A stretch of 24,000 nt of DNA from Haladaptatus halobius (lineage in GTDB: Archaea > Halobacteriota > Halobacteria > Halobacteriales > Haladaptataceae): assembly GCF_020618475.1 (NCBI RefSeq), contig NZ_CP085338.1, positions 343,416 through 367,415 of the forward strand, written 5' to 3'. Within the stretch, counting starts at the first letter, position 1; every line of letters starts with the position of its first letter. Positions 1-16,443 of the stretch are shown here, one piece after another. The notes under the pieces are model-generated. The model had not been told where the DNA came from, did not search any database, and worked only from the letters and a program-made list of their open reading frames with translations. A program made the translations under genes and the position numbers.

Positions 1-425
1 ACGCATTTTTCTTTATCGGACGGCGTCTCGGCCATCCAGTTGCGCTCGAAGGGGCATTGAAGCTCAAAGAAATCTCCTATGATCATGCTGAGGGTTTCCC
101 AAGTGGAGAACTCAAGCACGGCCCACTTGCACTTGTGACCGATGAGACACCCGTGGTTGCGATCCTTACTGAGGGTACGAATGCCGACGAAACGCTCCAT
201 AACGTGAAAGAGGTCGAATCACGAGGTGCCCCTACTATTGGCGTCACATCAGCAACTGATCCGAATCCAGTATTCGATACAACACTTACGGTGCCAAAGG
301 TAGGGTTGATGGAACCTGTTGTCGCAAACGTCTATCTTCAGCTGTTCGCCTATCACATTGCAAAGCGGAAGGGCCGTTCCATTGACAAACCACGGAATCT
401 CGCCAAGAGCGTCACAGTTGAGTGA
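1..425 (+). CDS. glmS: glutamine--fructose-6-phosphate aminotransferase (isomerising), C-terminal fragment; the 5' end lies outside the window
   Basis: Frame 3 is open from nt 3. The translation ..FIGRRLGHPVALEGALKLKEISYDHAEGFPSGELKHGPLALV..DKPRNLAKSVTVE* matches the SIS-domain C-terminus of GlmS, including the conserved terminal KSVTVE. The TTG at 57 in the ORF track is internal. Confidence 0.93.
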   Translation, partial: AFFFIGRRLGHPVALEGALKLKEISYDHAEGFPSGELKHGPLALVTDETPVVAILTEGTNADETLHNVKEVESRGAPTIGVTSATDPNPVFDTTLTVPKVGLMEPVVANVYLQLFAYHIAKRKGRSIDKPRNLAKSVTVE

Positions 426-748
426 ACTACCCCGCCATTGAGGGCGGGGCTTCCTGCTTCCACGACACGCTTTTTTCCGGCGATGTGTCGCATAGAGAGC
501 GCAATCTCCACAGGCATTACGTTCGGACCGTCTCCTTCCTACCTGTTTGACGGTTCCGCTGGCGAACGTAGGAGACAGTGCATCCGTGTTCTTGGATTTG
601 AACGCAGTGCTACTCACCGACCGTCTTACTACCAGATTTGACTGCGAGGGGAGTAAGGCTAACCCGTACAATGAAAGTAACCTAAAGACGGCGTTGTCTC
701 CCCGCCTTGAAGGCCCATGTCAGGTTTTAGCGCCTGTATTCTACATAA
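422..748 (-). mobile_element. tnpB-less MITE derived from the IS1341-type family present at 6812-8346 (omega-RNA-like sense on the minus strand)
   Basis: 422-540 aligns with the right end of the IS at 6812-6930 (GTGAACTACCCC..GGGGCTTCCTGYTTCCACGACRCGC..AGCGCARTCTCC.CAGGCATT). The long stem there is replaced by the hairpin CCCCGCC-ATTGAG-GGCGGGG (430-449). 660-744 aligns with 9680-9762 (CCGTACARTGAAAGTAACC..AAGACGGCG..GC hairpin..GCCTG.ATTCTA). No credible ORF is present. Confidence 0.7.
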
Positions 749-1173
749 CCGATTCCTGACCGATTATTCGCTATCGTAGCTAACCATCTTACATCTTTTT
801 TGATGGAGTTGACATAAACACGTAGGAGGTGGAGTTTGTCAGATGAGACACCAATAAATAGGTCACAAGAAAGTAGCTTAGATCATGAATTTGTCAGTGT
901 ATACGATCATACGCTCAAAATACGAACAATAGGATATCTCGCTTTAGTGTAATAAATTACGCAACGAAACCATTCGATTTTCAATCTTCTTTTGAGGATG
1001 TGAATAAACAAGCAAACTTCCGCTACTGTATTCGCTTATCAACGAGTCTTTCTCAATGAAAATACAGATAATATATAAATAAACACTAATAGTAATAATC
1101 TTTTTTAACCCCTACGTTGTAGTGATCAATCAGGTAGTGTGAGAGACTACCAAGGAGGATTTAGGGAACGTCT

Positions 1174-1395
1174 ATGACATCAACTCAGCAAAGGAAGGGC
1201 AGTGGGACAAGTGTGCGCCCAGACAACAGACCCTATGCAGTCGTGGTTGCCTCAGATCGGGAGGGTGTAGATGTTGTCCTGCATGGGTTATCGGCTGACC
1301 AAGCAGAACAAATCACGACCCAAAAAAATCAGAATTTAGAGCGAGGCTTTTCAGCTCACGCCTTACCAGAAAATCAATTGAGCACCGCCAAGTGA
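1174..1395 (+). CDS. hypothetical small protein (73 aa)
   Basis: ATG ORF preceded by GGAGG (1154-1158). Its GC content is clearly higher than the AT-rich flanks. I recognise no family. The stop TGA lies inside the GTGACA terminus of the adjacent IS remnant. Confidence 0.45.
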   Translation: MTSTQQRKGSGTSVRPDNRPYAVVVASDREGVDVVLHGLSADQAEQITTQKNQNLERGFSAHALPENQLSTAK

Positions 1396-2085
1396 CATCC
1401 TCCCCGTCGTAAACGACGGGGCTTCCCACAACAGTGGGATTCCGGCAATGCCGTAGGTTTCAGTTCGAATACGCCGAGAGCGTCATCTGTCCGGTTCTCG
1501 AACTCGTCTCCCGGTGGACTGTGGCGGTGTCACTACCGCTCCCATCCTGTGGCGTGTCATCGCGTTCCGGTTTCCAAGGAACGCTCTCACCCCACGGGTC
1601 TACGCGTCCGGCGATATTCGTCGCTGCGTTAATATCTGCTTGGAACTCCGATACGTGGCAGTCGTCGTTCGTACATCGGAACTCAGCTTGCGAACCACGC
1701 CGTCCGATGTGGCCGCAGTCATGACACGTCTGGGACATGTATGCCGGATTCACGAACCGGACTGGTATTCCCACCTCGGTTGCTTTGTCCTCGATACGAC
1801 CCTGTAGCCGTGCAAAGGCTCATGCGTGAAGACGCCGATTCATGTACTTGCTGTAGTCCAACCGCTCGCGGATAAACGACAAGTCTTCGAGGACAATAAC
1901 GGGATTCTCTCGCTGTTTAAAGATAGAACCTTCGTTTGACAATACGTCATAATAGCAGAGGGTTCTGTTCTGTGGTCTCTTTTCCACAACACCGTTGAGA
2001 CTTTGCTGATGAGTTCATCTTTCCGGTAGAGAAGAAGCTCCGGCCTTGATGGCGGAGAAAAGTATCCAAAGGTATTCATTTCCAA
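1392..2085 (-). pseudogene. tnpB: 5'-truncated, disrupted IS1341-type tnpB (second subfamily) with a retained right end
   Basis: The minus-strand translation reads ..NPVIVLEDLSFIRERLDYSKYMNRRLHA*AFARLQGRIEDKATEVGIPVRFVNPAYMSQTCHDCGHIGRRGSQAEFRCTNDDCHVSEFQADINAATNIAGR... This covers RuvC-II E, the CxxC..C zinc finger and RuvC-III D. An in-frame TGA at 1820-1822 sits where TnpB proteins carry Trp. The frame changes upstream of ~1990 and the N-terminal half is absent. The terminus is GTGACATCCTCC plus the hairpin CCCCGTCG-TAAA-CGACGGGG (1402-1421). Confidence 0.85.
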
Positions 2086-2571: not shown

Positions 2572-2607
2572 GGGAAGCCCCGCCCTTTAGGGCGGGGAGG
2601 ATGTCAC
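2572..2607 (+). repeat. solo right end (GTGACA subfamily) of an IS1341-type element or MITE; the body may extend left to ~2470
   Basis: GGGAAGCCCCGCCCTTTAGGGCGGGGAGGATGTCAC is the reverse complement of the terminus at 1392-1427. It contains the perfect hairpin CCCCGCCC-TTTA-GGGCGGGG (2578-2597). It overlaps the last 7 codons of the 478-aa gene. Confidence 0.75.
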
Positions 2608-4023
2608 TGTCGAAGTATCGTTTCCACCGTCTGTCGGCGGCCGATGATCGGAGTTCGGCCGTTCACCACATGATCCAAGGACGAAGAAGTTGGAGTAGGC
2701 GACATAGCGATACGTAAGGGTCGAGCCAGATGGGTATGTAGCTGTATAGATGTTTCCGTCGGATACAACAGGTGTGCCGGCTGCCGGTGGGTTTTCAGGG
2801 GACGTTTCGAGATCACTACTATCAAGTAGATACGCCCATGTTTGGTCACCTGTCTCTAGATCGAGCGCATAGATCACCGCTCGACCATTCCATTGGTTCG
2901 AAGCTGGCGTATAGCGACCACCGACGTATACTGTTTCGTCGGCAATGGCGGGACTGCTGAAGTATGATCCGTCCAGATTTGTCGTCCATAGTAGTGCGCC
3001 TGTCTCCGCATCCAGTGCCTTCACGATCGATTCGTCGTCGTTTGAATTGAGAAGGAGCACGTATCCGTCTGCGACTGCGAGTTGTCCATCCCATCTATTA
3101 CTGCCGTTGGATTCATACGTCCAAACGACCGTCCCATCGTCTGCTGACCGCGCTGTCACGCTGACCCTGTCATCGTCCCCGACGACAAACTCGGTTCGAA
3201 TATAGTACACCGTCCCGTCATTGACTGCGTGATTTCCAAGCGTTACTTGGTCATCAGCTACACGCCACTTTACTGATCCATTTGAAGCGTTTAATGCAGT
3301 TCCGTCTGCGAAAAAGATGGTTTCATCGCTGTAGCTTAATGCTGCGCCGACGCCGTCCACGAGACCTCCGACATTACTTTTTTTCCAGGCGGTGCCACCC
3401 GTCGTTTGGTCAAGTGCATATGCAGCGTTGCCGTTCGCTGTGTATACATGACCCTCCGTCACAATGGGGTTGGCCCACTCTCGGGTCTCGGTTCGGCTCC
3501 ACTCTGTCTCGCCAGTTTCGGCGTTGAGCGCGTAGAAACCACCTACGTCGGCGTCAGGAGTCGACGGCACTCTCGTTGCAAAATAAAGCATTCCATTGTC
3601 GAACTCAGGCGTCCGCGGCGCAGGCAGATCCGTTCGTTTCCACTGCTGGTCTCCAGTCTCGACATCATATGCACCGATATAGCCCTGGCTTTTCGAAGGA
3701 TCGTTGTCCGTCATGACGGCGAGATAAACTATTTCATTGGTTCCATTGACAGCAATGGGCTCAATGTTGTACATGCTACCATTGAGGTCCATTTTCCAAT
3801 CGGTCGTTGGGAATGGTGTTAGGCCATCTTTGGGAATTGCACCTGTTCGCCCTTGATTTGCCCGAACAGTTGTCCAGCTATCAGATGATTCTCGTCCGTC
3901 GACTGTTTTGCGTGCAACGGCAGTAGTTCCTTCGTAGCCCATGCCGCCCATCGCGATACCCACCGTTTTCAGGAACGTTCGTCGGCTATTTCGACCACTC
4001 CGCCTCCGTTGTTTCCAACTCAT
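2587..4023 (-). CDS. Tat-secreted PQQ-like (BamB/YVTN-type) beta-propeller repeat protein
   Basis: The N-terminus carries a twin-arginine motif (NSRRTFLKTVGIAMGG). The body is made of repeated ..G.VY....DG.L.ALDA.TG...W blades, for example ALNAETGETEWS, ALDAETGALLWT and ALDLETGDQTWA. The last 6 codons are read from the repeat at 2572-2607. Confidence 0.85.
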   Translation of the reverse strand: MSWKQRRRSGRNSRRTFLKTVGIAMGGMGYEGTTAVARKTVDGRESSDSWTTVRANQGRTGAIPKDGLTPFPTTDWKMDLNGSMYNIEPIAVNGTNEIVYLAVMTDNDPSKSQGYIGAYDVETGDQQWKRTDLPAPRTPEFDNGMLYFATRVPSTPDADVGGFYALNAETGETEWSRTETREWANPIVTEGHVYTANGNAAYALDQTTGGTAWKKSNVGGLVDGVGAALSYSDETIFFADGTALNASNGSVKWRVADDQVTLGNHAVNDGTVYYIRTEFVVGDDDRVSVTARSADDGTVVWTYESNGSNRWDGQLAVADGYVLLLNSNDDESIVKALDAETGALLWTTNLDGSYFSSPAIADETVYVGGRYTPASNQWNGRAVIYALDLETGDQTWAYLLDSSDLETSPENPPAAGTPVVSDGNIYTATYPSGSTLTYRYVAYSNFFVLGSCGERPNSDHRPPTDGGNDTSTVTSSPP

Positions 4024-4472: not shown

Positions 4473-6815
4473 ATGCCGACGTACGATATCGTTGAGCAAG
4501 GCGCAAACAACTCCGGAAACGCGGCAATTGACCCCGTTCTCAACAACCTTGTCGGCAGCAATACGACCATCATCTTTCCGCCAGGCACCTACCTGCTTAA
4601 CGAACTCATAGTTCAGTCCGGCACTGATAACCTTAAACTCATCGCGCCAGACGGCGCGCGTCTCGTTCCGGGTCAGTCAGGCGATAACGTGCGGTGGCTA
4701 GATGTCTACTCGAGTGGGTTCGTACTTGATGGATTCGAACTCGATATGCGAAATATACTGGTTCCACCTTTCGTGCGAATGAACTCTAGTGCTGGTAATT
4801 GGGAACTCAGGCGACTCATTACTCGTGGGAAAGTTCCGGCAGCTACAGACACTAACGTTGGATCGAATAGTTCGAGCGATGCACGGACGTACTTCCGCCT
4901 GTCAGCAGCTGCGGGAACACGCGGTCTCTTACAAGATTGTTACTTCCACGCGGGATCGTGCGCGCCGACTGAAGCAAGTAATCGCCGGGCAATCCTGATC
5001 GAATCATCGAAAGGTGCACTCACGTTGAACCGCTGTTGGTTCCAGCATTGGGGCGAGAACACGATTTATGCGAAGAAACCAGAAGGTAGTCTCAAAATTC
5101 TAAACTCTTTCTTCAGGAATTCGCAAAATGGTCTACGGCTTGGCGGTAACACAGAGGTTCGTAACTGTGTCTCAATTAAAAATAACGAGCATCCACGGTC
5201 GGCGTGGTCGAATGGGGCCATCCAACGTGGCGTTAACGCGGAGGCCATCGATCCAGCGAATTCGTCGGCAGGCATCAATAGCTATGACGGAACGCTAACC
5301 ATCGCCGATTGCGACTTCTACCACCGCTATTTAGCCAGCAGTTGTGGCGGGGCGATTACGGCACCTGTTACATGCCAGCGCATCGATATCCAGCGCGTCC
5401 GAATCAGCTATGAGTCCACAAAGAATCACGATGCAATCTACACGTATGAGGGGAGGATGGAAGACGGTACGCTCGCGAACCTTGAATATCTCCAACTTGA
5501 GGACGTCCACGTCCGTAATGATCACAGCTCAGAATACGCTATCTACATCGGACAGGTACCAGACACGTGGGGGACAGTGTCTGGCGTCTTAGGCGGAAGC
5601 GGTCCCCAAACTAACTCCTCCGTCATTAGTGAGCGAATGACTGTTAACGGCAATCCACAGTCACCAAACCGAACCCCGCCACTCCGGAGTCCGCCACCAC
5701 TTGGGGAGGTGCCGATGCAGTCGGCACAGCTCGTTCGAATTGATAACACCGGTAATGAAACACCGACATCCTACCAAATTACAGCTGGCGAGGATGTTCT
5801 TCCGGCGGGGAACGACGGTGCAACGATACCAACGTCTTGGGGGCCAGACGGAGGGCCACAGCGGCCGCCGAATTCAACAGAAGCCACTGGAACAGTTCCG
5901 GCAGGGAAAACGTATGCATTCTACGTCACTGGCGGTATCGTCGCCACTGAGGCCGACGGGCCAGCGACCTGGATTATCGATGGGGCAATCTATGATCCGA
6001 ACGCTGCAAATGGTTTCACCACGAGCACCATTTCTGGCGAGCAGCCGACTCGTGATCTCTGGCATCATATTGAGACTGGTGTCCAACAGCCTCGTGTCAT
6101 CTGTGCAAAGCCCCTCTCGTTCAACGGGAGTCATCCTGCTCACACTCGCCTACGGAACGTTACCGAGAGTGGTTTTGAGTATAAACTCGAAGAATGGTCG
6201 TATCTCGATGGACGACATGGAAGAGAAATGTTCCACATGCTTGCCGTGGAACCAACTGAACATGAGTTCCAACTGAGCGATGGGACATGGTATCGGATGA
6301 AAGCTGGAACTGCGTCTGTTTCCACCACTTTCACTACTGTCTCGCTGGCAGACTTTTTCGGCACAGCGACACCGGTAGTCCTGGCGCAGGCCCAAACGTT
6401 AAACGGTCCGGATCCAATCGTTACACGACTAACGGATGTCTCAAGTAGTTCGTTCAGGGTACGTGTCCAAGAAGAAGAACAGAACGCCACTACTTCGCAT
6501 ACTAGTGAGACAGTCGGCTATATCGCGCTCCAGCAAGGGACGGGGCAACTCAACGGCAGACCATTTGAGGTAGCACGAACCGGAACAACGGTCACCGATC
6601 AATGGTCTCGGATCTCCTTCCAGCAACAGTATGATGCGCCCCAGTTTATTGCCAATCTGCAAACGTTCATCGGCCCTGATACGGCAAATCTGCGCTACCG
6701 AAATCTCACTGGAACTGGCGTTGAGGTCAAGGTCGAAGAAGAGCAAAGTGCCGACACTGAAACGGCTCATGCCGCGGAATCGATCGGATATGTTGTCTTT
6801 GACGGTTCTGTGTGA
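4473..6815 (+). CDS. right-handed parallel beta-helix (pectate-lyase-fold) protein with three C-terminal ~55-90-aa repeat modules; function unknown
   Basis: The N-terminus YDIVEQGANNSGNAAIDPVLNNLVGSNTTIIFPPGTYLL resembles the start of pectate-lyase-superfamily proteins. No signal peptide is evident. The C-terminal third holds three copies of the pattern P.(V/F)(I/V).A....(F/L).G.D......R..(N/D)(V/L)T..GF.(V/Y)(K/R)(L/V).EE......H..E..GY(I/V)A. Confidence 0.8.
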   Translation: MPTYDIVEQGANNSGNAAIDPVLNNLVGSNTTIIFPPGTYLLNELIVQSGTDNLKLIAPDGARLVPGQSGDNVRWLDVYSSGFVLDGFELDMRNILVPPFVRMNSSAGNWELRRLITRGKVPAATDTNVGSNSSSDARTYFRLSAAAGTRGLLQDCYFHAGSCAPTEASNRRAILIESSKGALTLNRCWFQHWGENTIYAKKPEGSLKILNSFFRNSQNGLRLGGNTEVRNCVSIKNNEHPRSAWSNGAIQRGVNAEAIDPANSSAGINSYDGTLTIADCDFYHRYLASSCGGAITAPVTCQRIDIQRVRISYESTKNHDAIYTYEGRMEDGTLANLEYLQLEDVHVRNDHSSEYAIYIGQVPDTWGTVSGVLGGSGPQTNSSVISERMTVNGNPQSPNRTPPLRSPPPLGEVPMQSAQLVRIDNTGNETPTSYQITAGEDVLPAGNDGATIPTSWGPDGGPQRPPNSTEATGTVPAGKTYAFYVTGGIVATEADGPATWIIDGAIYDPNAANGFTTSTISGEQPTRDLWHHIETGVQQPRVICAKPLSFNGSHPAHTRLRNVTESGFEYKLEEWSYLDGRHGREMFHMLAVEPTEHEFQLSDGTWYRMKAGTASVSTTFTTVSLADFFGTATPVVLAQAQTLNGPDPIVTRLTDVSSSSFRVRVQEEEQNATTSHTSETVGYIALQQGTGQLNGRPFEVARTGTTVTDQWSRISFQQQYDAPQFIANLQTFIGPDTANLRYRNLTGTGVEVKVEEEQSADTETAHAAESIGYVVFDGSV

Positions 6816-7000
6816 ACTACCCCACCCTGCTCGGCCTGACGGCCTCGCTGCAGACGGGGCTTCCTGTTTCCACGACGCGCTTTGCAGACACAACCGTGTC
6901 CGTAGGGAGCGCAGTCTCCGCAGGCATTGAATCGGGGTGAACCACCCCTACTTGATCAAGTCCGCGAGCAAGGATGTTGTAGGCGGCGTTGAGGTCGTGG
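6796..7000 (-). ncRNA. predicted omega-RNA (reRNA/sotRNA) scaffold overlapping the tnpB 3' end, plus ~16 nt of flanking guide
   Basis: In IS200/IS605 TnpB systems the guide RNA comes from the tnpB 3' end and RE and reads into the flank. This segment is the part conserved in the tnpB-less copies at 422, 13651 and 16262-16443. Both the 5' boundary and expression are unverified. Confidence 0.45.
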
Positions 7001-8043
7001 TTCACCTCGAATTCGCATGAGGGACACGAGTGCTCGCGCACCCACAATGGTTTCTCGGTTTCGACGCCGCACGAAGAACACTCCTTCGTCGTCCCGCGTG
7101 GATCGACGGCAACGAAGTGCGTTCCTTCGCGTTCGCACTTGTATTCGAGCATCTGAAGGAACGTCCCCCACGCGGCTCCCGCCCGGTTGCGGCTGTTCGA
7201 CGGGAGTTCCATCAGGCCCTTGGCGTCGAGGTCTTCGACCGCTACGAGGTCGTACTCCCGAGCGTAGTACGCTGAGAGCTTGTGAAGAAAGTCGCGGCGT
7301 TTTCGCTTCAGGTCGGCGTGGCGGCGGGCGACGACCCGTTGTTGCTTGCGGTAGTTCGCCGAACCGTGCTCCTTCCGAGATAGATTCCTTTGTGCGCGTT
7401 CCAACCGATCGCGTTCCTCGGAAAGGTCGGGACCTTCGACGGCGGTTCCGTCGCTGTCGTGGGCATACATCAGAATCCCCACGTCGATCCCGACGCACTT
7501 CTTGGGCTTCTCGGGCTTTGGTGGCGCGTCGTTCTCGGTTTCGAGTCCGAGGACGGCGAACCACTCGCCCGTGGGTTCCTGCTTCACGACGACCTCTTTG
7601 ATCGTCGCGTCGTCGGGAACCTCGCGGTGGTAGATCATCGGAATATCGCCGATCTTGGAAAGAGAGAGTACAGGTCGACCGCTCGTGTTGTTGAGCTTGA
7701 AGCCGGTTTGACTGTACTTGATCGAGCGATACTCCTGTGGGGCTTTCCACCGAAGTTCGCCGACTCGGTAGCCGTTGTCCTTCCGTCCCTTCAGCGTCGA
7801 GAGGTTGTCGTATAACCGCTGAACGACTTTCTGAAGGACCTTCGAGTGAACGTCCTTCAGATCGGTCCACTCGCGTTTGAGGTCCGGGAGAAGCTTCTGC
7901 TCGGAGTAGGCGGAGGTTCCGTCTACTCGGTTGAGTCGGTGAAGGAAGTGATTGTAGACCTGCCGGCAGGTATCGACGGTCCACGCTAACCGCTCGTGGA
8001 GTTCGTCGGTCGGTTTGAGCCGATACCTGTAGTTATAGCGCAT
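6817..8043 (-). CDS. tnpB: RNA-guided endonuclease TnpB (IS1341-type accessory protein), apparently intact
   Basis: 408 aa. RuvC-I (CVGIDVGI), RuvC-II (LVAVEDLD), the zinc finger (CSSCG..CPSCE) and RuvC-III (NHDLNAAYNI) are all present. The C-terminal ..VSAKRVVETGSP.. tail is typical of haloarchaeal TnpB. The stop TAG is 5 nt from the element end. Confidence 0.93.
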   Translation of the reverse strand: MRYNYRYRLKPTDELHERLAWTVDTCRQVYNHFLHRLNRVDGTSAYSEQKLLPDLKREWTDLKDVHSKVLQKVVQRLYDNLSTLKGRKDNGYRVGELRWKAPQEYRSIKYSQTGFKLNNTSGRPVLSLSKIGDIPMIYHREVPDDATIKEVVVKQEPTGEWFAVLGLETENDAPPKPEKPKKCVGIDVGILMYAHDSDGTAVEGPDLSEERDRLERAQRNLSRKEHGSANYRKQQRVVARRHADLKRKRRDFLHKLSAYYAREYDLVAVEDLDAKGLMELPSNSRNRAGAAWGTFLQMLEYKCEREGTHFVAVDPRGTTKECSSCGVETEKPLWVREHSCPSCEFEVNHDLNAAYNILARGLDQVGVVHPDSMPAETALPTDTVVSAKRVVETGSPVCSEAVRPSRVG

Positions 8044-8046
8044 GGC

Positions 8047-8199
8047 CTACTCGCCTGAATCGGCGTCGGGTTCGGAAACTCGAACGACCTTCACGTCCGC
8101 TCCGATCCACCGTTTCGGGACGAGGACGTGCGCGCCGTTGCCGACCGCGCGAACGTCTCGGTCGAGAACTTCGTAGCCCTCGATTTCGTGCCGATCCAT
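8047..8199 (-). CDS. DUF2080-like transposon-associated small protein (AbrB/SpoVT-like fold suspected), 50 aa
   Basis: Found by hand because it falls below the ORF-track cutoff: MDRHEIEGYEVLDRDVRAVGNGAHVLVPKRWIGADVKVVRVSEPDADSGE*. The G.G..V.VPK.WIG..V.V pattern matches the small archaeal ORFs found upstream of IS1341-type tnpB. Its stop lies 3 nt before the tnpB ATG (TAG-GCC-ATG). Confidence 0.75.
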   Translation of the reverse strand: MDRHEIEGYEVLDRDVRAVGNGAHVLVPKRWIGADVKVVRVSEPDADSGE

Positions 8200-8200
8200 T

Positions 8201-8231
8201 AACTGCGTATATACGCAGTTGTGACTTAAAT
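8201..8231 (-). promoter_or_regulatory. perfect 20-bp palindrome (candidate operator) plus a TATA-like box upstream of the DUF2080-tnpB operon
   Basis: AACTGCGTATATACGCAGTT (8201-8220) is its own reverse complement and abuts the start codon at 8199. ATTTAAG (minus strand, 8225-8231) lies ~29 nt upstream of the ATG, which would suit a leaderless transcript. Confidence 0.45.
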
Positions 8232-8372
8232 CCGCCGATAGCGTGGGCCTGCGGGCCTGCTACCGCGCATAGTTAATAGACGATGACGGCACTATCTCCC
8301 CTCCCTACTCGCTCCCTTCGGTCGCTCGTTGAGGAAGGGGCCTTAGTGCCTCAATTCAGCATTCGGTAGGGT

Positions 8373-8821
8373 GGCGCCTCCTTCCTCACCGAACGAAGTG
8401 AGTCGGGAGGAGAGGAAACCCGTTCGAGAAGGCTTAATACACCCGAAACCGTATGATAATCTACTGCTGCCTTGGCACAAGCCCAAGACAGTAGGTGCCA
8501 TGAGTAAACTGGCACCTGTGGTGCGGGAGTACCGCACCCTATACTCGGGAACGACGACCGCGAACGGGTTCAATTCCCTACCCATCTTGGGTTTGAGCGT
8601 GAGAACACCGGGAATTAAATCGGCGGGACAATCCCGGCCTTCGGTCGGAGTGGGAAGCATCAAACAATGCACCCACGCTGAAGGCAAGGACGGTAAGAGA
8701 AAGCCGGGCCGCGTCCATGCATGGGGTCGCGGGGCACACTGTCGTTGCGGTAAAGCCCCGCCCTCAAGGAGTGACCGACCGCCGCAAGGCGCGAGGAAGC
8801 GAGTAGGGCGGGGTAGTTTAC
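8373..8821 (+). mobile_element. divergent tnpB-less IS1341-type derivative, inverted and head-to-head with the IS; a candidate for a long structured RNA
   Basis: The right end GAGTAGGGCGGGGTAGTTTAC (8801-8821) is the inverted counterpart of GTGAACTACCCCRCCCTRCTC. 8373-8415 (GGCGCCTCCTTCCTCACCGAACGAAGTGAGTCGGGAGGAGAGG) resembles the reverse complement of the IS left end. The interior is full of stem-loops (8461-8494, 8520-8538). The ORFs overlapping it are basic and of low complexity. Confidence 0.5.
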
Positions 8822-9187
8822 GTAAACACCTCGCCTGTATTCACCATGATAGAGGAAAGGTGAATCTGTCTACAATTTCATTGGAAATCAGGTGAAGATT
8901 CACCCCATAATATTTCCTACCTTGAAAGAAAGTGGGTCGAATCTACCGTTCAAAATTACAGAACTGAAGCTAGCATACATATCCCTGAGAGTATGATATA
9001 TGCATTTCTCTGTTTAATAGCTTCTTTTTCTGCGAAGCAAAACTCCTTACTTTCGAATTAGCTTCACTAATTATTCGATATTCGGCTAGATTTTGTCGGC
9101 TTAGCGAAGATAGCGGATGAATACACTTAATATATGGACGGTAGGAGAGTGAATTCTTATTACGTTGGCTGCTAAAGGACAAGTGGT

Positions 9188-9337
9188 ATGCCATTCTCCG
9201 TCGCCGTGCGGCGGTGGTTAGCTGACGATGGTGCCATTATTTATGAGTGTCGTCATTGTGGGACCACAGTTGAATCCACTGAGCACCAGTGTCCCACTTG
9301 TGAGTCAACTGAAATTGTGACGTTCGACATCTCGTGA
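9188..9337 (+). CDS. small CPxCG-related zinc-finger protein (49 aa)
   Basis: Found by hand: MPFSVAVRRWLADDGAIIYECRHCGTTVESTEHQCPTCESTEIVTFDIS*. It has two CxxC knuckles (CRHC, CPTC), as in a zinc ribbon. The stop TGA lies in the GTGAC terminus of the next element. Confidence 0.7.
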   Translation: MPFSVAVRRWLADDGAIIYECRHCGTTVESTEHQCPTCESTEIVTFDIS

Positions 9338-9384
9338 CTCTTCCCCGCCCTCAAGGGCGAGGCTTTCTCCTCGATTCTACGTAA
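9334..9384 (-). mobile_element. ~50-nt mini-MITE (RE terminus, one hairpin and LE terminus) including the flanking GTAA
   Basis: GTGACTCTTCCCCGCCCTCAAGGGCGAGGCTTTCTCCTCGATTCTAC+GTAA aligns end to end with 12082-12134. The hairpin is CCCCGCCC-TCAA-GGGCGAGG (9343-9362). Confidence 0.65.
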
Positions 9385-9765
9385 GTGACATCCTCCCGCG
9401 CCTCAAGACGCGGGCCTCCCACAAGCCGGTCTTGCTGAGTTGGGATGTTTACGGTTCGCACCCCGACGGGGTGCTGGCGATGGCACGTAGCCGGTACTCC
9501 TATCGTATCCGGGAAACGGACGGGACTCGGAGGTACGTGGTTGTTTTATGTCGGTTCGCCGTCCGAGGGCTTACTTGTTTGATGAGGCAAACGCCCAGTC
9601 AACTGCCAGTTTTCGGACTGTCAGAATTCGATGGGGTACCATCGAATCGACACTGAGGGATACGCACGGAGAGCACCTAAGGCTGTACCGTACAGTGAAA
9701 GTAACCAAAGACGGCGATTCATCCACGCCCTCAAGGGCGTGGTATTCTCGCCTGCAATTCTATAA
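9385..9765 (-). mobile_element. MITE of the GTGACA subfamily (tnpB-less)
   Basis: It starts GTGACATCCTCCCGCG..CGCGGGCCTCCCACAA, like 1392-1432. It ends CCGTACAGTGAAAGTAACC..CCACGCCC-TCAA-GGGCGTGG..GCCTGCAATTCTATAA, like 660-748. Only implausible ORFs overlap it. Confidence 0.7.
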
Positions 9766-9781
9766 CCAAACCTGAATTAGG

Positions 9782-10042
9782 TTATGGCGAGGAGGATGTC
9801 GCTTCGATCTCGACGAGATCCTGCCCTGCCTCAACTTCGACTTCATTTTCAACGAAGAATTCGGTTATCTCACCCGGTTGCTCAGCCTTTATTTCGTGAA
9901 AGTTTTTCATCACACCGACGAGGCCGACGACGTCTCCAACGTCGACAGTATCTCCTACTTCTGCGAATATGTCTTCATCTGGATTGGGACGACGATAGAA
10001 GACGCCGGGCATCGGGGATTGAAGTGTTGTTGTTTCAGTCAT
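9782..10042 (-). CDS. biotin carboxyl carrier protein-like biotinyl-domain protein (86 aa)
   Basis: Biotinyl/lipoyl-domain pattern: ..GDTVDVGDVVGLVGVMKNFHEIKAEQPGEITEFFVENEVEVEAGQDLVEIE, with the candidate biotinyl-Lys in VMKN. It carries a 6-aa tail, ATSSSP, after the usual domain end. Confidence 0.8.
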   Translation of the reverse strand: MTETTTLQSPMPGVFYRRPNPDEDIFAEVGDTVDVGDVVGLVGVMKNFHEIKAEQPGEITEFFVENEVEVEAGQDLVEIEATSSSP

Positions 10043-12081: not shown

Positions 12082-12134
12082 TTGACATACTCCCCGCCCT
12101 GAAGGGCGAGGCTTTGCGCCTGCGATCTCCGTAA
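12082..12134 (-). mobile_element. ~50-nt mini-MITE in the pxpB/accC divergent intergenic region
   Basis: TTGACATACTCCCCGCCCTGAAGGGCGAGGCTTTGCGCCTGCGATCTCC+GTAA aligns with 9334-9384. The hairpin is CCCCGCCC-TGAA-GGGCGAGG (12092-12111). Confidence 0.6.
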
Positions 12135-12295: not shown

Positions 12296-13651
12296 ATGTT
12301 TGATCGAGTATTGATCGCTAATCGGGGTGAAATCGCCGTCCGCATTATACAGGCCTGCCGTGAACTTGGCGTTGAATCAGTGGCAGTCTATAGCGATGCC
12401 GACGAGAATGCACGTCACGTACGACTCGCCGATAATGCGTATCATATTGGGCCGTCAGTTGCTCGTGAGAGCTATTTGAATCCGGAATCCCTGCTCGATG
12501 CTGCACGCAATGCAAATGTCGATGCGATTCATCCAGGATATGGATTTCTCGCTGAGAGCACGTCATTCGCAACTGCGGTCGAAGACAGTGATTTCGTTTG
12601 GATTGGCCCTCCAAGCGACGTCATGGAGCGGTTTGGCGAGAAAACGAAAGCGCGGGCAATTATGCAACAGGCCGATGTCCCGATTGTTCCTGGCACCACA
12701 GAACCAGTCTCCGACGTCGAAGAGATACAACGATTTGCCGACGAACACGGGTATCCGATTGCGATCAAAGCAGACGGTGGCGGTGGCGGTCGTGGACTCA
12801 AGGTCGTTCATGAAGAACAAAATATTGAGGAACAGTTCACGAGTGCTCAACGGGAAGGAGACGCGTATTTTGACAACTCAAACGTGTATGTCGAGCGCTT
12901 TCTAGAACAGCCGCGCCACATCGAAGTCCAAATTCTATGTGATAAACACGGGAACGTCCTGGATCTCGGGGAACGCGACTGTAGTATTCAACGGCGACAA
13001 CAGAAGCTCATCGAAGAGACACCAAGTCCAGCACTGACTGAGGAAGAGCGAGAGCAGATTCGACGTGCTGCCCGTCGCGGTGCCGACGAGGCAGGGTACG
13101 TCAATGCTGGGACGGTAGAGTTCCTCTATGAGGATGGAGAGTTCTATTTCCTGGAGGTGAATGCCCGAATCCAAGTCGAGCACCCCATCTCCGAGATCGT
13201 CACTGGACTCGATCTCGTCCAATGGCAACTCAAAATCGCTGCAGGAGAGACACTATCGTTTGACCAAGAAGAGCTTCAAACACACGGCACCGCGATGGAA
13301 TTCCGAATCAATGCAGAAGACCCACACGAGGAGTTCGCTCCGATGCCAGGAACGGTCGAGCGTTACCATCCGCCTCGTGGAATCGGAACTCGTGTTGACG
13401 ACGGAATTGACCAAGGAGACACCATTAGCCCGCATTACGATTCCCTCATCGCCAAATTCATCGTCTCCGGGGAAGATCGAACACAACTTCTCCGACGGGG
13501 AAAGCGAGTGCTTCAAGAAGCGGAAATCAGGGGGATTCCCTCAACTATCCCATTCCATTTGGCGATGCTCAACGACGATGCTTTCAACGATGGTGAATAT
13601 TCGACGAAGTACGTCGACGAGGTGTTCAGCATGCCCTCAGAAGATGAGTAG
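12296..13651 (+). CDS. accC: biotin carboxylase (ATP-grasp) subunit
   Basis: [56 protein letters not shown].. is canonical biotin carboxylase across all 451 aa. Confidence 0.95.
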
Positions 13652-13906
13652 TGAACTACCCCGCCCTGCTCGGCCTGATGGCCTCGATGAGGACGGAGCT
13701 TGCTGTTTCGACAACGCACGTTGCAGACACAACGATATCCGTAAGGAGCGCAGTCTTCACAGGCGTTGATTCGGAGCGTCCCACTCCGAACTTCTCAGGT
13801 AAAGCGGCCAAAGGGGATTCGATGGCGAGTGGACTACCCCACCCTACTCGCTCACCGCTGACGCAGCTTGCTCCGTGAGGAAGTGGACTTAGCGCCTGAA
13901 AACAGT
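13651..13906 (-). mobile_element. internally deleted (tnpB-less) copy of the IS at 6812-8346, with both end regions present
   Basis: 13651-13775 is about 80 percent identical by eye to 6812-6935. The minus-strand reading still shows a TnpB C-terminal remnant, ESTPVKTALLTDIVVSATCVVETASSVLIEAIRPSRAG, against DSMPAETALPTDTVVSAKRVVETGSPVCSEAVRPSRVG in the IS. 13829-13888 matches the IS left end. The right boundary is uncertain. Confidence 0.8.
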
Positions 13907-13922
13907 TATATCCCAACTGCTC

Positions 13923-16261: not shown

Positions 16262-16443
16262 TGGTTGAGTGTCCATCCAGTAGGAGTGGGACACTCCGAA
16301 CCCCCCGTCAAGGGAAATCGCCTGCGGAGTCTGAAACCGCTGTGGGACAGGTTCCTGCACGGTCCAACAACAGAAACAGGAAGCTCCGTCCGCAACAAGT
16401 GAGGGCCGGGTAGGCCCGAACGCGGTAGAGCGGAGTAGTTCAC
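16262..16443 (+). mobile_element. orphan right-end (omega-RNA-like) fragment of the GTGAAC subfamily, plus-strand sense; the left boundary is uncertain
   Basis: The reverse complement starts GTGAACTACTCCGCTCTACCG..ACGGAGCTTCCTGTTTC..TTCGGAGTGTCCCACTCC and aligns with 13651-13795. The plus-strand reading retains ETGSSVRNK, against VETGSPVCSE in TnpB. I found no LE-like end. Confidence 0.65.

What the first reader, a model, noticed from the sequence alone, without database searches (positions are those of the whole stretch)
417..750. IS1341/MITE right ends sit exactly on host stop codons and regenerate them; the inferred target TTAY is the complement of R+TAA
Five independent right ends, read on the + strand as GTGAAC.. 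or GTGACA.., begin at 422, 1392, 6812, 9334 and 13651. In each case the first G is codon position 3 of the last codon of a + strand ORF, and the following TGA is in frame. The junctions are glmS GAG-TGA, the 73-aa ORF AAG-TGA, the 780-aa ORF GTG-TGA, the zinc-finger ORF TCG-TGA and accC TAG-TGA. GlmS ends at its conserved ..KSVTVE, so the element occupies the position of the native stop. At the other end, four copies align to ATTCTAC followed by RTAA (ATAA 745-748; GTAA 9381-9384; GTAA 12131-12134; TAA 9763-9765). Joining the flanks reconstructs GTT GAA TAA for glmS and ATC TCG TAA for the zinc-finger gene, which are intact ochre stops. On the element sense strand this is insertion 3' of TTAY, as in the IS608 paradigm (TTAC). 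The terminus ..GT(T)CAC then supplies a usually synonymous third base plus a new TGA. Insertion would therefore be silent for the protein, and the omega-RNA guide segment would be antisense to the last codons of the host gene. One caveat is that ORF ends are defined by the first in-frame stop, so about one third of 3'-proximal insertions would look like this by chance. A second caveat is that two out-of-phase cases exist (2607 and ~9803).
Basis: partly seen in the sequence, partly recalled or inferred. Interest (0 to 1): 0.8.

Follow-up and report, generated by a model that had tools for sequence, protein, structure and literature searches.

The report
Transposon ends that replace stop codons
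Mobile elements of a well-known family (IS200/IS605 with TnpB, plus gene-less miniatures called PATEs) in a salt-loving archaeon sit exactly on host stop codons and supply a new stop from their own end, which follows from the family's known target rule and is not a new mechanism.

Summary
At 422, 1392, 6812, 9334 and 13651 the element end reads G-TGA, with G as codon position 3 of a + strand ORF. Four opposite ends are followed by RTAA. The window alone is weak evidence (5 of 7, p about 0.045). An independent sample of about 110 related ends from metagenomes, plus about 43 from genomes, gives Pfam-verified host genes in phase 12:1:1 (p about 8e-5). All 12 in-phase proteins are complete at the C-terminus.

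GlmS and the 780-aa protein end flush with their homologues, and two Haladaptatus orthologues end GTT-TAA and GTG-TAA.

The mechanism is the ordinary IS200/IS605 rule. Insertion occurs 3' of a transposon-adjacent motif. That motif is TTAY in the PATE family and TTTAN in the GTGAACTACCCC IS family. Its complement contains TAA. The element's own right-end motif, TTCAC, mimics the TAM, so N-TAA-A is replaced by G-TGA-A. TAM availability explains most of the concentration at stop codons; the residual enrichment is 2.6-4.5 fold (p about 0.04).

Weak points:
- The accC and 780-aa left flanks lack TAA.
- The 73-aa protein may be truncated.

The elements are known kinds. I found no description of the stop-codon swap in the papers searched.

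The parts
57..425 (+). 3' part of glmS (SIS domain). The last codon is GAG 420-422. The stop TGA 423-425 lies inside the element.
   Evidence: Pfam SIS. 111 of 120 homologues end KSVTVE.
422..744 (-). PATE-1, a gene-less IS200/IS605 derivative. On the + strand the right-end tip reads GTGAACTACCCC (422-433). The left end finishes ...GTATTCTAC (736-744).
   Evidence: Positions 438-550 are 77-79% identical to right ends of the haloarchaeal IS family. Hairpin shown. Coordinates.
745..748 (.). ATAA, the complement of the TAM TTAT. Joined to 421 it reconstructs GTT GA|A TAA.
   Evidence: Sequence.
1174..1395 (+). 73-aa conserved small protein. Its stop TGA 1393-1395 lies in the element.
   Evidence: 7 homologues found. 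5 of 6 run about 9 aa longer.
1392..1810 (-). Truncated IS: right-end tip GTGACATCCTCC plus a TnpB C-terminal fragment (1463-1774). The left end is missing and the inner boundary is approximate.
   Evidence: Pfam Cas12f1-like_TNB, profile positions 16-60 of 60.
2572..2607 (+). Right end of an oppositely oriented copy (...GGGGAGGATGTCAC). The PQQ ORF (2587-4023, - strand) reads 6 codons into it, out of phase.
   Evidence: I2. The Haladaptatus orthologue ends about 24 aa earlier.
4473..6815 (+). 780-aa ORF. The last codon is GTG 6810-6812 and the stop TGA 6813-6815 lies in the IS.
   Evidence: The C-terminus is flush with 5 Haladaptatus homologues. Orthologues end GTT TAA and GTG TAA.
6812..8359 (-). 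Full IS1341-type element (1548 bp). The left end finishes ...CCTCAATTCAG 8349-8359 and the flank is CATTC.
   Evidence: The left end matches the family consensus GAGGAAGGGGCCTTAGCGCCTCAATTCAG.
6817..8043 (-). tnpB, 408 codons. Its TAG stop (6817-6819) lies in the right-end motif GGGGTAGTTCAC.
   Evidence: Pfam OrfB_IS605, Cas12f1-like_TNB and HTH_OrfB_IS605. Translation.
8360..8849 (.). Unexplained 490-nt segment next to the IS left end. It holds a right-end-like hairpin in the opposite orientation (8753-8821) and a PATE-type left-end tail CGCCTGTATTCAC (8832-8844), followed by CATGA-TAG.
   Evidence: Only 8753-8821 has relatives among the 240 loci. There is a weak sub-threshold Rfam hit.
9188..9337 (+). 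49-aa zinc-ribbon ORF with TCG 9332-9334 and TGA 9335-9337.
   Evidence: Pfam DUF7129, E = 1e-6, just under the family cut-off.
9334..9380 (-). 47-bp ends-only mini-PATE. GTAA 9381-9384 is the complement of its TAM TTAC, which reconstructs ATC TC|G TAA.
   Evidence: It resembles the 52-bp terminal-only PATE described in PMC3119063.
9385..9762 (-). PATE-2. Its right-end tip GTGACATCC directly abuts the neighbour's GTAA. The left end ...GCAATTCTA is followed by TAA 9763-9765.
   Evidence: (D11, D14).
9786..9802 (+). Right-end-like remnant (GGCGAGGAGGATGTCGC) inside the end of the biotin-carrier ORF (9782-10042, - strand). It adds the residues ATSSSP before a TAA.
   Evidence: Pfam Biotin_lipoyl, profile 2-73 of 73, ends at residue 79 of 86.
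12082..12130 (-). Mini-PATE with a TTGACA tip (right-end motif TCAA, as in IS608). GTAA 12131-12134 follows. It lies between divergent genes.
12296..13651 (+). accC (biotin carboxylase). The G of its TAG stop (13649-13651) is the first base of the element.
   Evidence: Pfam. Homologue C-terminal tails vary in length.
13651..13905 (-). PATE-3. Its right end is 80% identical to 6812-6961. The left end ...GCCTGAAAACAG finishes at 13905 and the flank is TTATATCC, with no TAA.
   Evidence: (D1). The homologous left end in L199 is followed by TTAAAA.
16262..16443 (+). PATE-like copy between convergent genes, with right-end tip ...CGGAGTAGTTCAC at 16431-16443. The left boundary is approximate. It is not on a stop codon.
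   Evidence: (I5, I6).

Best explanation
These are IS200/IS605-family elements: one intact IS1341-type copy that carries TnpB only, one truncated copy, and several PATEs.

A Y1 transposase supplied in trans pastes the single-stranded element immediately 3' of a short transposon-adjacent motif (TAM). The TAM is TTAY for the ATTCTAC PATE family and TTTAN for the GTGAACTACCCC IS family. On the other strand that reads RTAA or NTAAA. In a genome that is not AT-rich, much of that sequence sits at ochre stop codons.

An in-frame TAA inside a gene can only be its stop codon. So any insertion in that phase falls one base before a native stop. Insertions in the other phases break genes and are lost.

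The right end finishes with its own cleavage motif, TTCAC (the transposon-encoded motif, TEM). The TEM must resemble the TAM because both pair with similar guide sequences inside the element. On the host strand, N-TAA-A is therefore replaced by G-TGA-A. The reading frame closes at the same position, usually with the same last residue.

The stop-codon swap is thus a by-product of TAM/TEM mimicry combined with purifying selection.

What is shown: junction anatomy, phase bias, intact host C-termini, TAA in orthologues, and the TAM consensus.

What is inferred: the order of events, transposase action in trans, and an omega-RNA whose guide is antisense to the last host codons.
For: - TnpB domains are present. 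Both ends carry subterminal hairpins and there is no target duplication.
- Left-end flanks are RTAA in 4 window copies and in 2 of 3 mini-PATEs found elsewhere. They are [G/C/T]TAA[A] in about 19 copies of the IS family.
- Phase among Pfam-verified genes at junctions is 12:1:1. Each in-phase protein is covered to the end of its profile, for example DUF5793 1-157 of 157, DUF5786 1-55 of 55, HisG_C 1-73 of 73, GMC_oxred_C 1-139 of 139 and DsrE 14-115 of 116. Twenty further long ORFs at junctions have no domain.
- Three in-phase sites with both ends in the locus reconstruct to TAA stops: L139 TC|C TAA A, L159 GC|T TAA A and L239 TT|C TAA G.
- The 780-aa protein ends flush with its homologues. Orthologous genes end GTT TAA G and GTG TAA G, with synteny kept.
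- GlmS ends KSVTVE.
- Background NTAAA sites already peak at stop codons: 22 at stops against 23 in the next 50 nt.
- Published rules agree. IS608 has left cleavage site TTAC and right cleavage site TCAA, both recognised by base pairing (PMC3201880). ISGst2 has TAM TTTAT and TEM TTCAC, differing only at positions 3 and 5 (PMC10055086). SisTnpB1 has TAM TTTAA.
Against: - The window's own full-length IS has a CATTC left flank and PATE-3 has TTATATCC. Two of the five sites therefore cannot be reconstructed. Nesting or later mutation is assumed, not shown.
- Stop-codon sites are still 2.6-4.5 fold commoner than TAM availability predicts (p about 0.04). Selection may not be the whole story.
- Whether the G belongs to the element (cut before N-TAA) or to the host (cut before TAA) could not be resolved, because N is constant within IS subfamilies.
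- No tnpA is present in the window.
- Gene calls in the background model are heuristic.
Confidence: 0.8

Rival explanations
1. Adaptive stop-codon homing. The TAM and the right-end motif would have been shaped by selection so that the clade colonises ochre stops of conserved genes as safe, conserved homing sites. Its omega-RNA guides would then match conserved C-terminal codons.
For: - There is a residual 2.6-4.5 fold excess at stops over TAM availability.
- Variant tips keep a stop in the same phase: GTAAAC at 8810-8827 and in L142, TTGACA at 12082.
- The GGGGTAGTTCAC tip is conserved from haloarchaea to Thaumarchaeota, Asgard archaea and cyanobacteria.
- One copy sits on glmS.
Against: - The excess is marginal (p about 0.04) and rests on heuristic gene calls.
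- About 85% of copies are not on stop codons.
- TTCAC is also the right-end motif of a Geobacillus element, where it is explained by pairing with an internal guide.
- A GCGACA remnant and two out-of-phase ends exist in the window.
Confidence: 0.13
2. Chance. ORF ends are defined by the first in-frame stop, so a third of insertions near gene 3' ends would look like this.
For: The window alone gives only p about 0.045. The 73-aa ORF may be such a case.
Against: The independent sample gives 12:1:1, with all in-phase proteins complete at the C-terminus. Orthologues carry TAA at the same position.
Confidence: 0.02
3. Mis-set boundary. GTGA would be host sequence (a native TGA stop) and the element would start after it.
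For: IS200/IS605 elements make no target duplication, so boundaries rest on comparing copies.
Against: - GTGAAC is constant in more than 150 copies with unrelated upstream flanks.
- Two copies in one Thaumarchaeota genome diverge upstream of GTGAAC.
- Orthologues of the 780-aa gene have TAA and no GTGAAC.
- TTCAC is the experimentally defined right-end motif of a related element.
Confidence: 0.02
4. Host exaptation. The PATE hairpins at gene ends would be kept because they act as 3'-end stabilisers, terminators or antisense regulators, as REP elements do.
For: They are GC-rich hairpins placed immediately after stops. One Halobacterium sotRNA lies antisense to a neighbour's 3' UTR and shows anticorrelated expression (PMC4615843).
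Against: There are no expression data here. Copies are diverse, partly decayed, and also occur away from gene ends. The insertions are not conserved in Haladaptatus.
Confidence: 0.05

Closest known systems
ISGst2-type IS200/IS605 elements of Geobacillus stearothermophilus (Meers et al. 2023, PMC10055086)
   Same: The pentanucleotide TAM is TTTAT and the right-end motif is TTCAC, the same right-end motif as here. The TAM and right-end motif differ only at positions 3 and 5. PATE-like derivatives exist. TnpB with its omega-RNA homes to the empty site.
   Different: It is bacterial and has tnpA in the same genome. No association with stop codons was reported in the text searched.
IS608 of Helicobacter pylori
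   Same: It inserts 3' of TTAC. The right cleavage site TCAA lies about 10 nt after the hairpin foot. Both sites are read by internal guide sequences. The complements GTAA and TTGA carry stops in the same phase, and the 12082 mini-PATE has exactly the TCAA tip.
   Different: It carries tnpA as well as tnpB. Its host genome is AT-rich, so TTAC is not concentrated at stop codons.
PATEs and IS1341-type transposons of Haloquadratum and Natronomonas (Dyall-Smith et al. 2011, PMC3119063)
   Same: They are gene-less elements with near-terminal palindromes related to IS605-type ends, a 4-5 nt targeting oligonucleotide, no inverted repeats and no duplications. Terminal-only versions of about 50 bp exist.
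   Different: The passages retrieved from that paper with the search terms used here say nothing about stop-codon phase or regeneration.
Sulfolobus islandicus SisTnpB1
   Same: It is an archaeal TnpB with an experimentally supported TAM, TTTAA. Sulfolobus contigs carry the same GTGAACTACCCC tip.
   Different: Its host is thermophilic and AT-rich. Target context relative to genes was not analysed.
IS605 stem-loops at Borrelia lipoprotein genes (Delihas 2009, PMC2775950)
   Same: IS605 end sequence overlaps the last 8 nt and the TAA of a host gene. That paper notes that small mobile repeats often overlap gene 3' ends.
   Different: The overlap involves the left end in sense orientation. There is no phase statistic and no TAM/right-end-motif rationale.
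Other harmless-insertion strategies: IStrons, Tn7 at attTn7 downstream of glmS, and integrases that rebuild tRNA gene 3' ends (the last two from my own knowledge)
   Same: The mobile element avoids damaging the host gene. One copy here sits at glmS.
   Different: Here there is no splicing, no dedicated target-selector protein, and no duplicated gene segment. Only 5 nt are mimicked.

Membership tests
IS200/IS605 family, IS1341 group (TnpB only) | Encodes TnpB with a RuvC-like OrfB_IS605 domain and a zinc-finger TNB domain | tested here: met
   For 6817-8043: PF01385 at 9e-23, PF07282 at 1e-23 and PF12323 at 3e-9.
IS200/IS605 family, IS1341 group (TnpB only) | No tnpA (Y1 transposase) inside the element | tested here: met
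   6812-8359 holds only tnpB and a 51-aa ORF with no Pfam match.
IS200/IS605 family, IS1341 group (TnpB only) | Subterminal hairpins at both ends, no terminal inverted repeats and no target-site duplication | tested here: met
   Hairpins fold at the right and left ends. The left end of the IS has z = -3.1; the short right-end hairpins are weaker, z -1.1 to -1.7. Flanks such as GTTGA|...|ATAACC are not repeated.
IS200/IS605 family, IS1341 group (TnpB only) | Left end preceded by a conserved 4-5 nt TAM | tested here: inconclusive
   Met for four PATE copies (TTAY) and about 19 related IS copies (TTTAN). Not met for the window's own IS (CATTC flank) or for PATE-3 (TTATA).
IS200/IS605 family, IS1341 group (TnpB only) | Right end finishes with a cleavage motif resembling the TAM | tested here: met
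   ...TAGTTCAC lies 8 nt from the hairpin foot. TTCAC equals the ISGst2 right-end motif.
IS200/IS605 family, IS1341 group (TnpB only) | Omega-RNA transcribed from the right end, with its guide taken from the flank | not testable with these tools
   There are no RNA data. Rfam gave no match at gathering score or at E <= 1 for 380-800.
IS200/IS605 family, IS1341 group (TnpB only) | Mobility by single-strand peel-and-paste transposition | not testable with these tools
   No empty or filled pair from the same species was found. Exact-protein look-ups returned nothing.
PATE (palindrome-associated transposable element) | Too short to encode a transposase, with ends related to IS605-type ends, near-terminal palindromes, and neither inverted repeats nor duplications | tested here: met
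   422-744, 9385-9762, 13651-13905 and the 47-49-bp forms all fit. Right-end homology to the IS family is shown, folds, and the definition.

The most novel reading that the evidence does not exclude
The TnpB clade with the ...GGGGTAGTTCAC right end would use ochre stop codons of conserved genes as a preferred landing and homing niche. TAM/right-end mimicry would be retained partly because it makes the insertion invisible to the host protein. The omega-RNA guide, matching conserved C-terminal codons, would let the element home into orthologous sites across strains and species. The antisense guide transcript would also offer a ready route to regulating the host gene.
Probability: 0.13. Interest if true: 0.75.

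Novelty: new member of a known kind. Interest (0 to 1): 0.45.

Why it matters
- About one in eight copies of this widespread archaeal IS family sits on a host stop codon. Many annotated stop codons and gene 3' ends in haloarchaea, and at least some in Thaumarchaeota and methanogens, are therefore supplied by a transposon.
- The finding gives a simple sequence-level reason why IS1341-type elements and PATEs can pile up in compact genomes with little damage.
- It predicts that many natural omega-RNA guides are antisense to conserved C-terminal codons.
- It shows a practical side-effect of TAM/right-end mimicry: the element rebuilds 3 of the 5 target bases.
- It does not require any new mechanism.

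Tried and rejected
- **Exact-protein look-ups.** Searches for accC and the 780-aa protein found nothing. The closest GlmS is only 72% identical. No same-species empty site could be found, so orthologues in Haladaptatus were used instead.
- **Genome scan pattern too short.** About two thirds of the 124 matches to the 15-nt pattern were chance hits inside bacterial genes.
- **ORF length and GC3 heuristics.** They could not separate genes from shadow ORFs on the opposite strand. L172, L186, L193 and L212 looked like genes but have no domain. Pfam was then used on every long ORF.
- **Naive enrichment estimate.** Stops make up 3.4% of non-genic NTAAA sites against about 12% of junctions. This overstated the effect. 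A distance-matched control cut it to 2.6-4.5 fold.
- **Reconstructing two sites.** Attempts for the 780-aa and accC sites from their left flanks failed.
- **One-base boundary question.** I could not decide whether the G is element or host sequence.
- **Rfam.** It gave nothing useful.
- **B-type ends.** Ends of the GTGACATCC type are too rare in the fetched loci for their own census.
Full report
**What is in the window.**
The window comes from a haloarchaeon. It has about 51% G+C and acidic proteins. The best GlmS match is 72% identical. The 780-aa protein and local gene order are closest to Haladaptatus.

The window holds:
- one intact IS1341-type element at 6812-8359, with tnpB at 6817-8043 carrying the OrfB_IS605, Cas12f1-like TNB and HTH_OrfB_IS605 domains;
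- one truncated copy from 1392, with a TnpB C-terminal fragment at 1463-1774;
- gene-less derivatives at 422-744, 9385-9762 and 13651-13905;
- 47-49-bp ends-only forms at 9334-9380 and 12082-12130;
- ends or remnants at 2572-2607, 9786-9802 and about 16262-16443.

The small forms fit the PATEs described for Haloquadratum and Natronomonas, including terminal-only versions of about 50 bp (PMC3119063). PATE-1 shares about 130 nt of right-end sequence with the haloarchaeal IS family. Both ends fold into subterminal hairpins. There are no inverted repeats and no duplications.

**Checking the observation.**
The four left-end flanks (ATAA, GTAA, GTAA, TAA) are also correct.

It lies 80 nt past the amidase stop.

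In the window, five of the seven ends that touch an ORF are in phase. At p = 1/3 this gives only about 0.045 (my arithmetic). The window alone therefore does not settle the matter.

**Independent census.**
I scanned the genome collection for GTGAACTACCCCNCC. About 43 true ends were found across a very wide range of hosts: haloarchaea, methanogens, Sulfolobus, Thaumarchaeota, Asgard and DPANN archaea, cyanobacteria, Deinococcales and some anaerobic bacteria. The rest were chance matches inside bacterial genes.

I then scanned the metagenome collection for GTGAACTACCCCRCCCTRC. This gave 111 distinct junctions, one of which (L158) is a chance match.

ORF length and composition alone confuse genes with shadow ORFs. 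I therefore ran Pfam on every junction ORF of at least 100 codons, plus shorter ones that looked coding.

ORFs with a domain:
- **TGA frame (12):** L125 DUF5793, L128 copper-binding, L130 PNP_UDP_1, L142 HNH_repeat, L148 DUF5786, L223 HisG, L236 DUF7575, L239 GMC_oxred_C, L139 MFS_1, L157 TrkH, L087 DsrE, and L118 Fer4 with CCG.
- **Frame +1 (1):** L200, which is the TnpB of another IS.
- **Frame +2 (1):** L044, a Na/H exchanger cut at profile position 145 of 375.

Twelve of 14 at p = 1/3 gives about 8e-5 (my arithmetic). In all twelve in-phase cases the profile is covered to its end, so the proteins are complete. The phase bias is real and general, and it means insertion at native stop codons.

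**The five window cases, one by one.**
- **glmS.** 111 of 120 homologues end KSVTVE. The left flank ATAACC reconstructs GTT GA|A TAA. This case is fully supported.
- **780-aa ORF.** Its end ...GYVVFDGSV is flush with five Haladaptatus homologues. In Haladaptatus sp. AB643 the neighbouring PQQ gene is conserved and the orthologue ends GTT TAA G. In strain CMAA 1911 it ends GTG TAA G. These act as empty sites in relatives, and they show an ochre stop with no GTGAAC. However, the IS left end (8349-8359) is followed by CATTC and then a 490-nt segment of unclear nature, so this site cannot be rebuilt from its own flanks.
- **Zinc-ribbon ORF.** It has a DUF7129-like signature, and its flank reconstructs ATC TC|G TAA. 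The next element abuts that GTAA exactly. The original sequence would therefore have been GTAAATAACC, which holds two adjacent TAMs.
- **accC.** TAG|TGA is in phase and the C-terminus is plausible. The left flank is TTATATCC, whereas a homologous left end elsewhere is followed by TTAAAA (L199). A mutated TAM is possible but not shown.
- **73-aa ORF.** It belongs to a real small-protein family. Five of six homologues are about nine residues longer. This may be a truncating insertion or a naturally short lineage.

**The out-of-phase cases.**
- The Haladaptatus PQQ orthologue ends about 24 residues before the point where the window's ORF enters the element. The end at 2607 therefore probably lies in what was 3' flank.
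- The biotin-carrier domain is complete at residue 79 of 86. The remaining residues, ATSSSP, come from an 18-nt right-end-like remnant in which GTGA has become GCGA. Translation now stops at the TAA beyond it.

**The target motif.**
The ATTCTAC PATE family is flanked by RTAA. The base before TAA varies (A or G) among close relatives, so it belongs to the host, and the TAM is TTAY. Two of three mini-PATEs found in other loci also have ATAA.

The GTGAACTACCCC IS family has left ends ...CTTAGCGCCT-N6-CAG followed by [G/C/T]TAA and then usually A. Its TAM is therefore TTTAN.

Three in-phase census sites with both ends present reconstruct to ochre stops:
- L139: TC|C TAA A;
- L159: GC|T TAA A;
- L239: TT|C TAA G. 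This one would be a Phe-to-Leu change.

**Why the stop is regenerated.**
Published work supplies the rule.
- In IS608 the target and left cleavage site TTAC, and the right cleavage site TCAA, are each recognised by pairing with a guide sequence inside the element (PMC3201880).
- In ISGst2 the TAM is TTTAT and the right-end motif is TTCAC, differing only at positions 3 and 5 (PMC10055086).
- An archaeal TnpB, SisTnpB1, uses TTTAA.

The elements here end ...TAGTTCAC, the same right-end motif. Read on the host strand, the target N-TAA-A is replaced by G-TGA-A. The stop-for-stop exchange is thus an automatic result of the right end mimicking the target motif.

The variant tips behave the same way. 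GTAAAC and TTGACA both keep a stop in the same phase.

**Is there targeting beyond the motif?**
In 530 kb of host DNA from the same loci, 22 NTAAA sites are stops of coding-looking ORFs, 626 are non-genic and 530 are genic. The naive expectation for stops is therefore 3.4%, against about 12% of junctions observed.

A distance-matched control is fairer.

| Comparison | Junctions at stop : nearby | Background at stop : nearby | Odds ratio | p |
|---|---|---|---|---|
| Stop vs 1-200 nt downstream of a coding-looking ORF | 13 : 15 | 22 : 66 | 2.6 | 0.037 |
| Stop vs the first 50 nt downstream | 13 : 3 | 22 : 23 | 4.5 | 0.038 |

Most of the spike at stop codons is therefore what motif availability predicts in genomes that are not AT-rich. 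A modest excess remains. Selection against insertions in regulatory DNA could account for it, or there may be a real preference. The gene calls used here are heuristic.

**Open points.**
- The one-base position of the cut is unresolved. It could fall before N-TAA, with the G supplied by the element, or before TAA, with the G belonging to the host. N is constant within IS subfamilies. Neither variant copies nor paired copies decide it. The outcome for the host protein is the same either way.
- The omega-RNA and its antisense guide are inferred from published architecture. One Halobacterium sotRNA is known to lie antisense to a neighbour's 3' UTR (PMC4615843).
- No tnpA is present in the window.

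**Comparison and novelty.**
The elements are ordinary members of the IS200/IS605 family (IS1341 group) and of the PATEs. Overlap of small mobile repeats with gene 3' ends has been noted before, for example IS605 left-end sequence over the last 8 nt and TAA of a Borrelia lipoprotein gene (PMC2775950).

I found no description of the phase-locked replacement of ochre stops by the right end, or of its explanation through TAM/right-end mimicry. My literature search was limited.

My verdict is a real, tidy and general pattern that known mechanism explains. It is of moderate interest.

Noticed in passing
window 8360-8849: A 490-nt segment lies between the IS left end and the host flank. Only its last 70 nt (8753-8821) resemble anything in the 240 fetched loci: a right-end-type hairpin in the opposite orientation, ending GGGGTAGTTTAC. 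It is followed by a PATE-type left-end tail CGCCTGTATTCAC and then CATGA-TAG. The only Rfam hit is sub-threshold (DUF3800-X, 22 bits against a cut-off of 38). It could be a nested or head-to-head PATE, or a structured RNA.
   Followed up: partly
window 8045-8200 (- strand): A 51-aa ORF (MDRHEIEGYEVLDRDVRAVGNGAHVLVPKRWIGADVKVVRVSEPDADSGE) sits inside the IS, ending 1 nt (8044) before the tnpB start codon at 8043. It has no Pfam match even at E <= 1.
   Followed up: partly
window 6813-6819: The host's new stop (TGA 6813-6815, + strand) and the tnpB stop (TAG 6817-6819, - strand, inside the motif GGGGTAGTTCAC) are one base apart. The right-end tip therefore carries a stop on each strand.
   Followed up: no
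window 9782-9802: An 18-nt right-end-like remnant (GCGACATCCTCCTCGCC...) adds six codons (ATSSSP) to an otherwise complete biotin-carrier domain. The ORF then ends at a TAA followed by CC, the same TAACC seen at other left-end flanks. It looks like a decayed mini-element whose TGA was lost.
   Followed up: partly
window 16262-16443: A further PATE-like copy has the tip ...CGGAGTAGTTCAC.
   Followed up: partly
loci L001-L120 (for example L118, L085, L078, L029, L006, L098): The right-end tip (hairpin, then TAGTTCAC) is nearly identical across haloarchaea, methanogens, Sulfolobus, Thaumarchaeota, Asgard and DPANN archaea, cyanobacteria, Deinococcales and some anaerobic bacteria. That is an unusually wide conservation for a 12-nt transposon end.
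   Followed up: partly
L241 2596-2650 (- strand) and 4550-6879: Haladaptatus sp. AB643 carries a 50-nt mini-PATE-like hairpin followed by GTAA in the PQQ gene's 3' region. Its orthologue of the 780-aa gene is called as two ORFs (451 and 292 aa).
   Followed up: no
L200 junction; L044 junction: In L200 one right end abuts the 3' end of another IS's tnpB (an IS next to an IS). In L044 a right end cuts a Na/H exchanger gene at profile position 145 of 375, which is a genuine gene-disrupting insertion.
   Followed up: partly
window 13906-13910: The left flank of PATE-3 reads TTATA where a homologous element elsewhere has TTAAA. If this is a mutated TAM, the element can no longer be excised.
   Followed up: no
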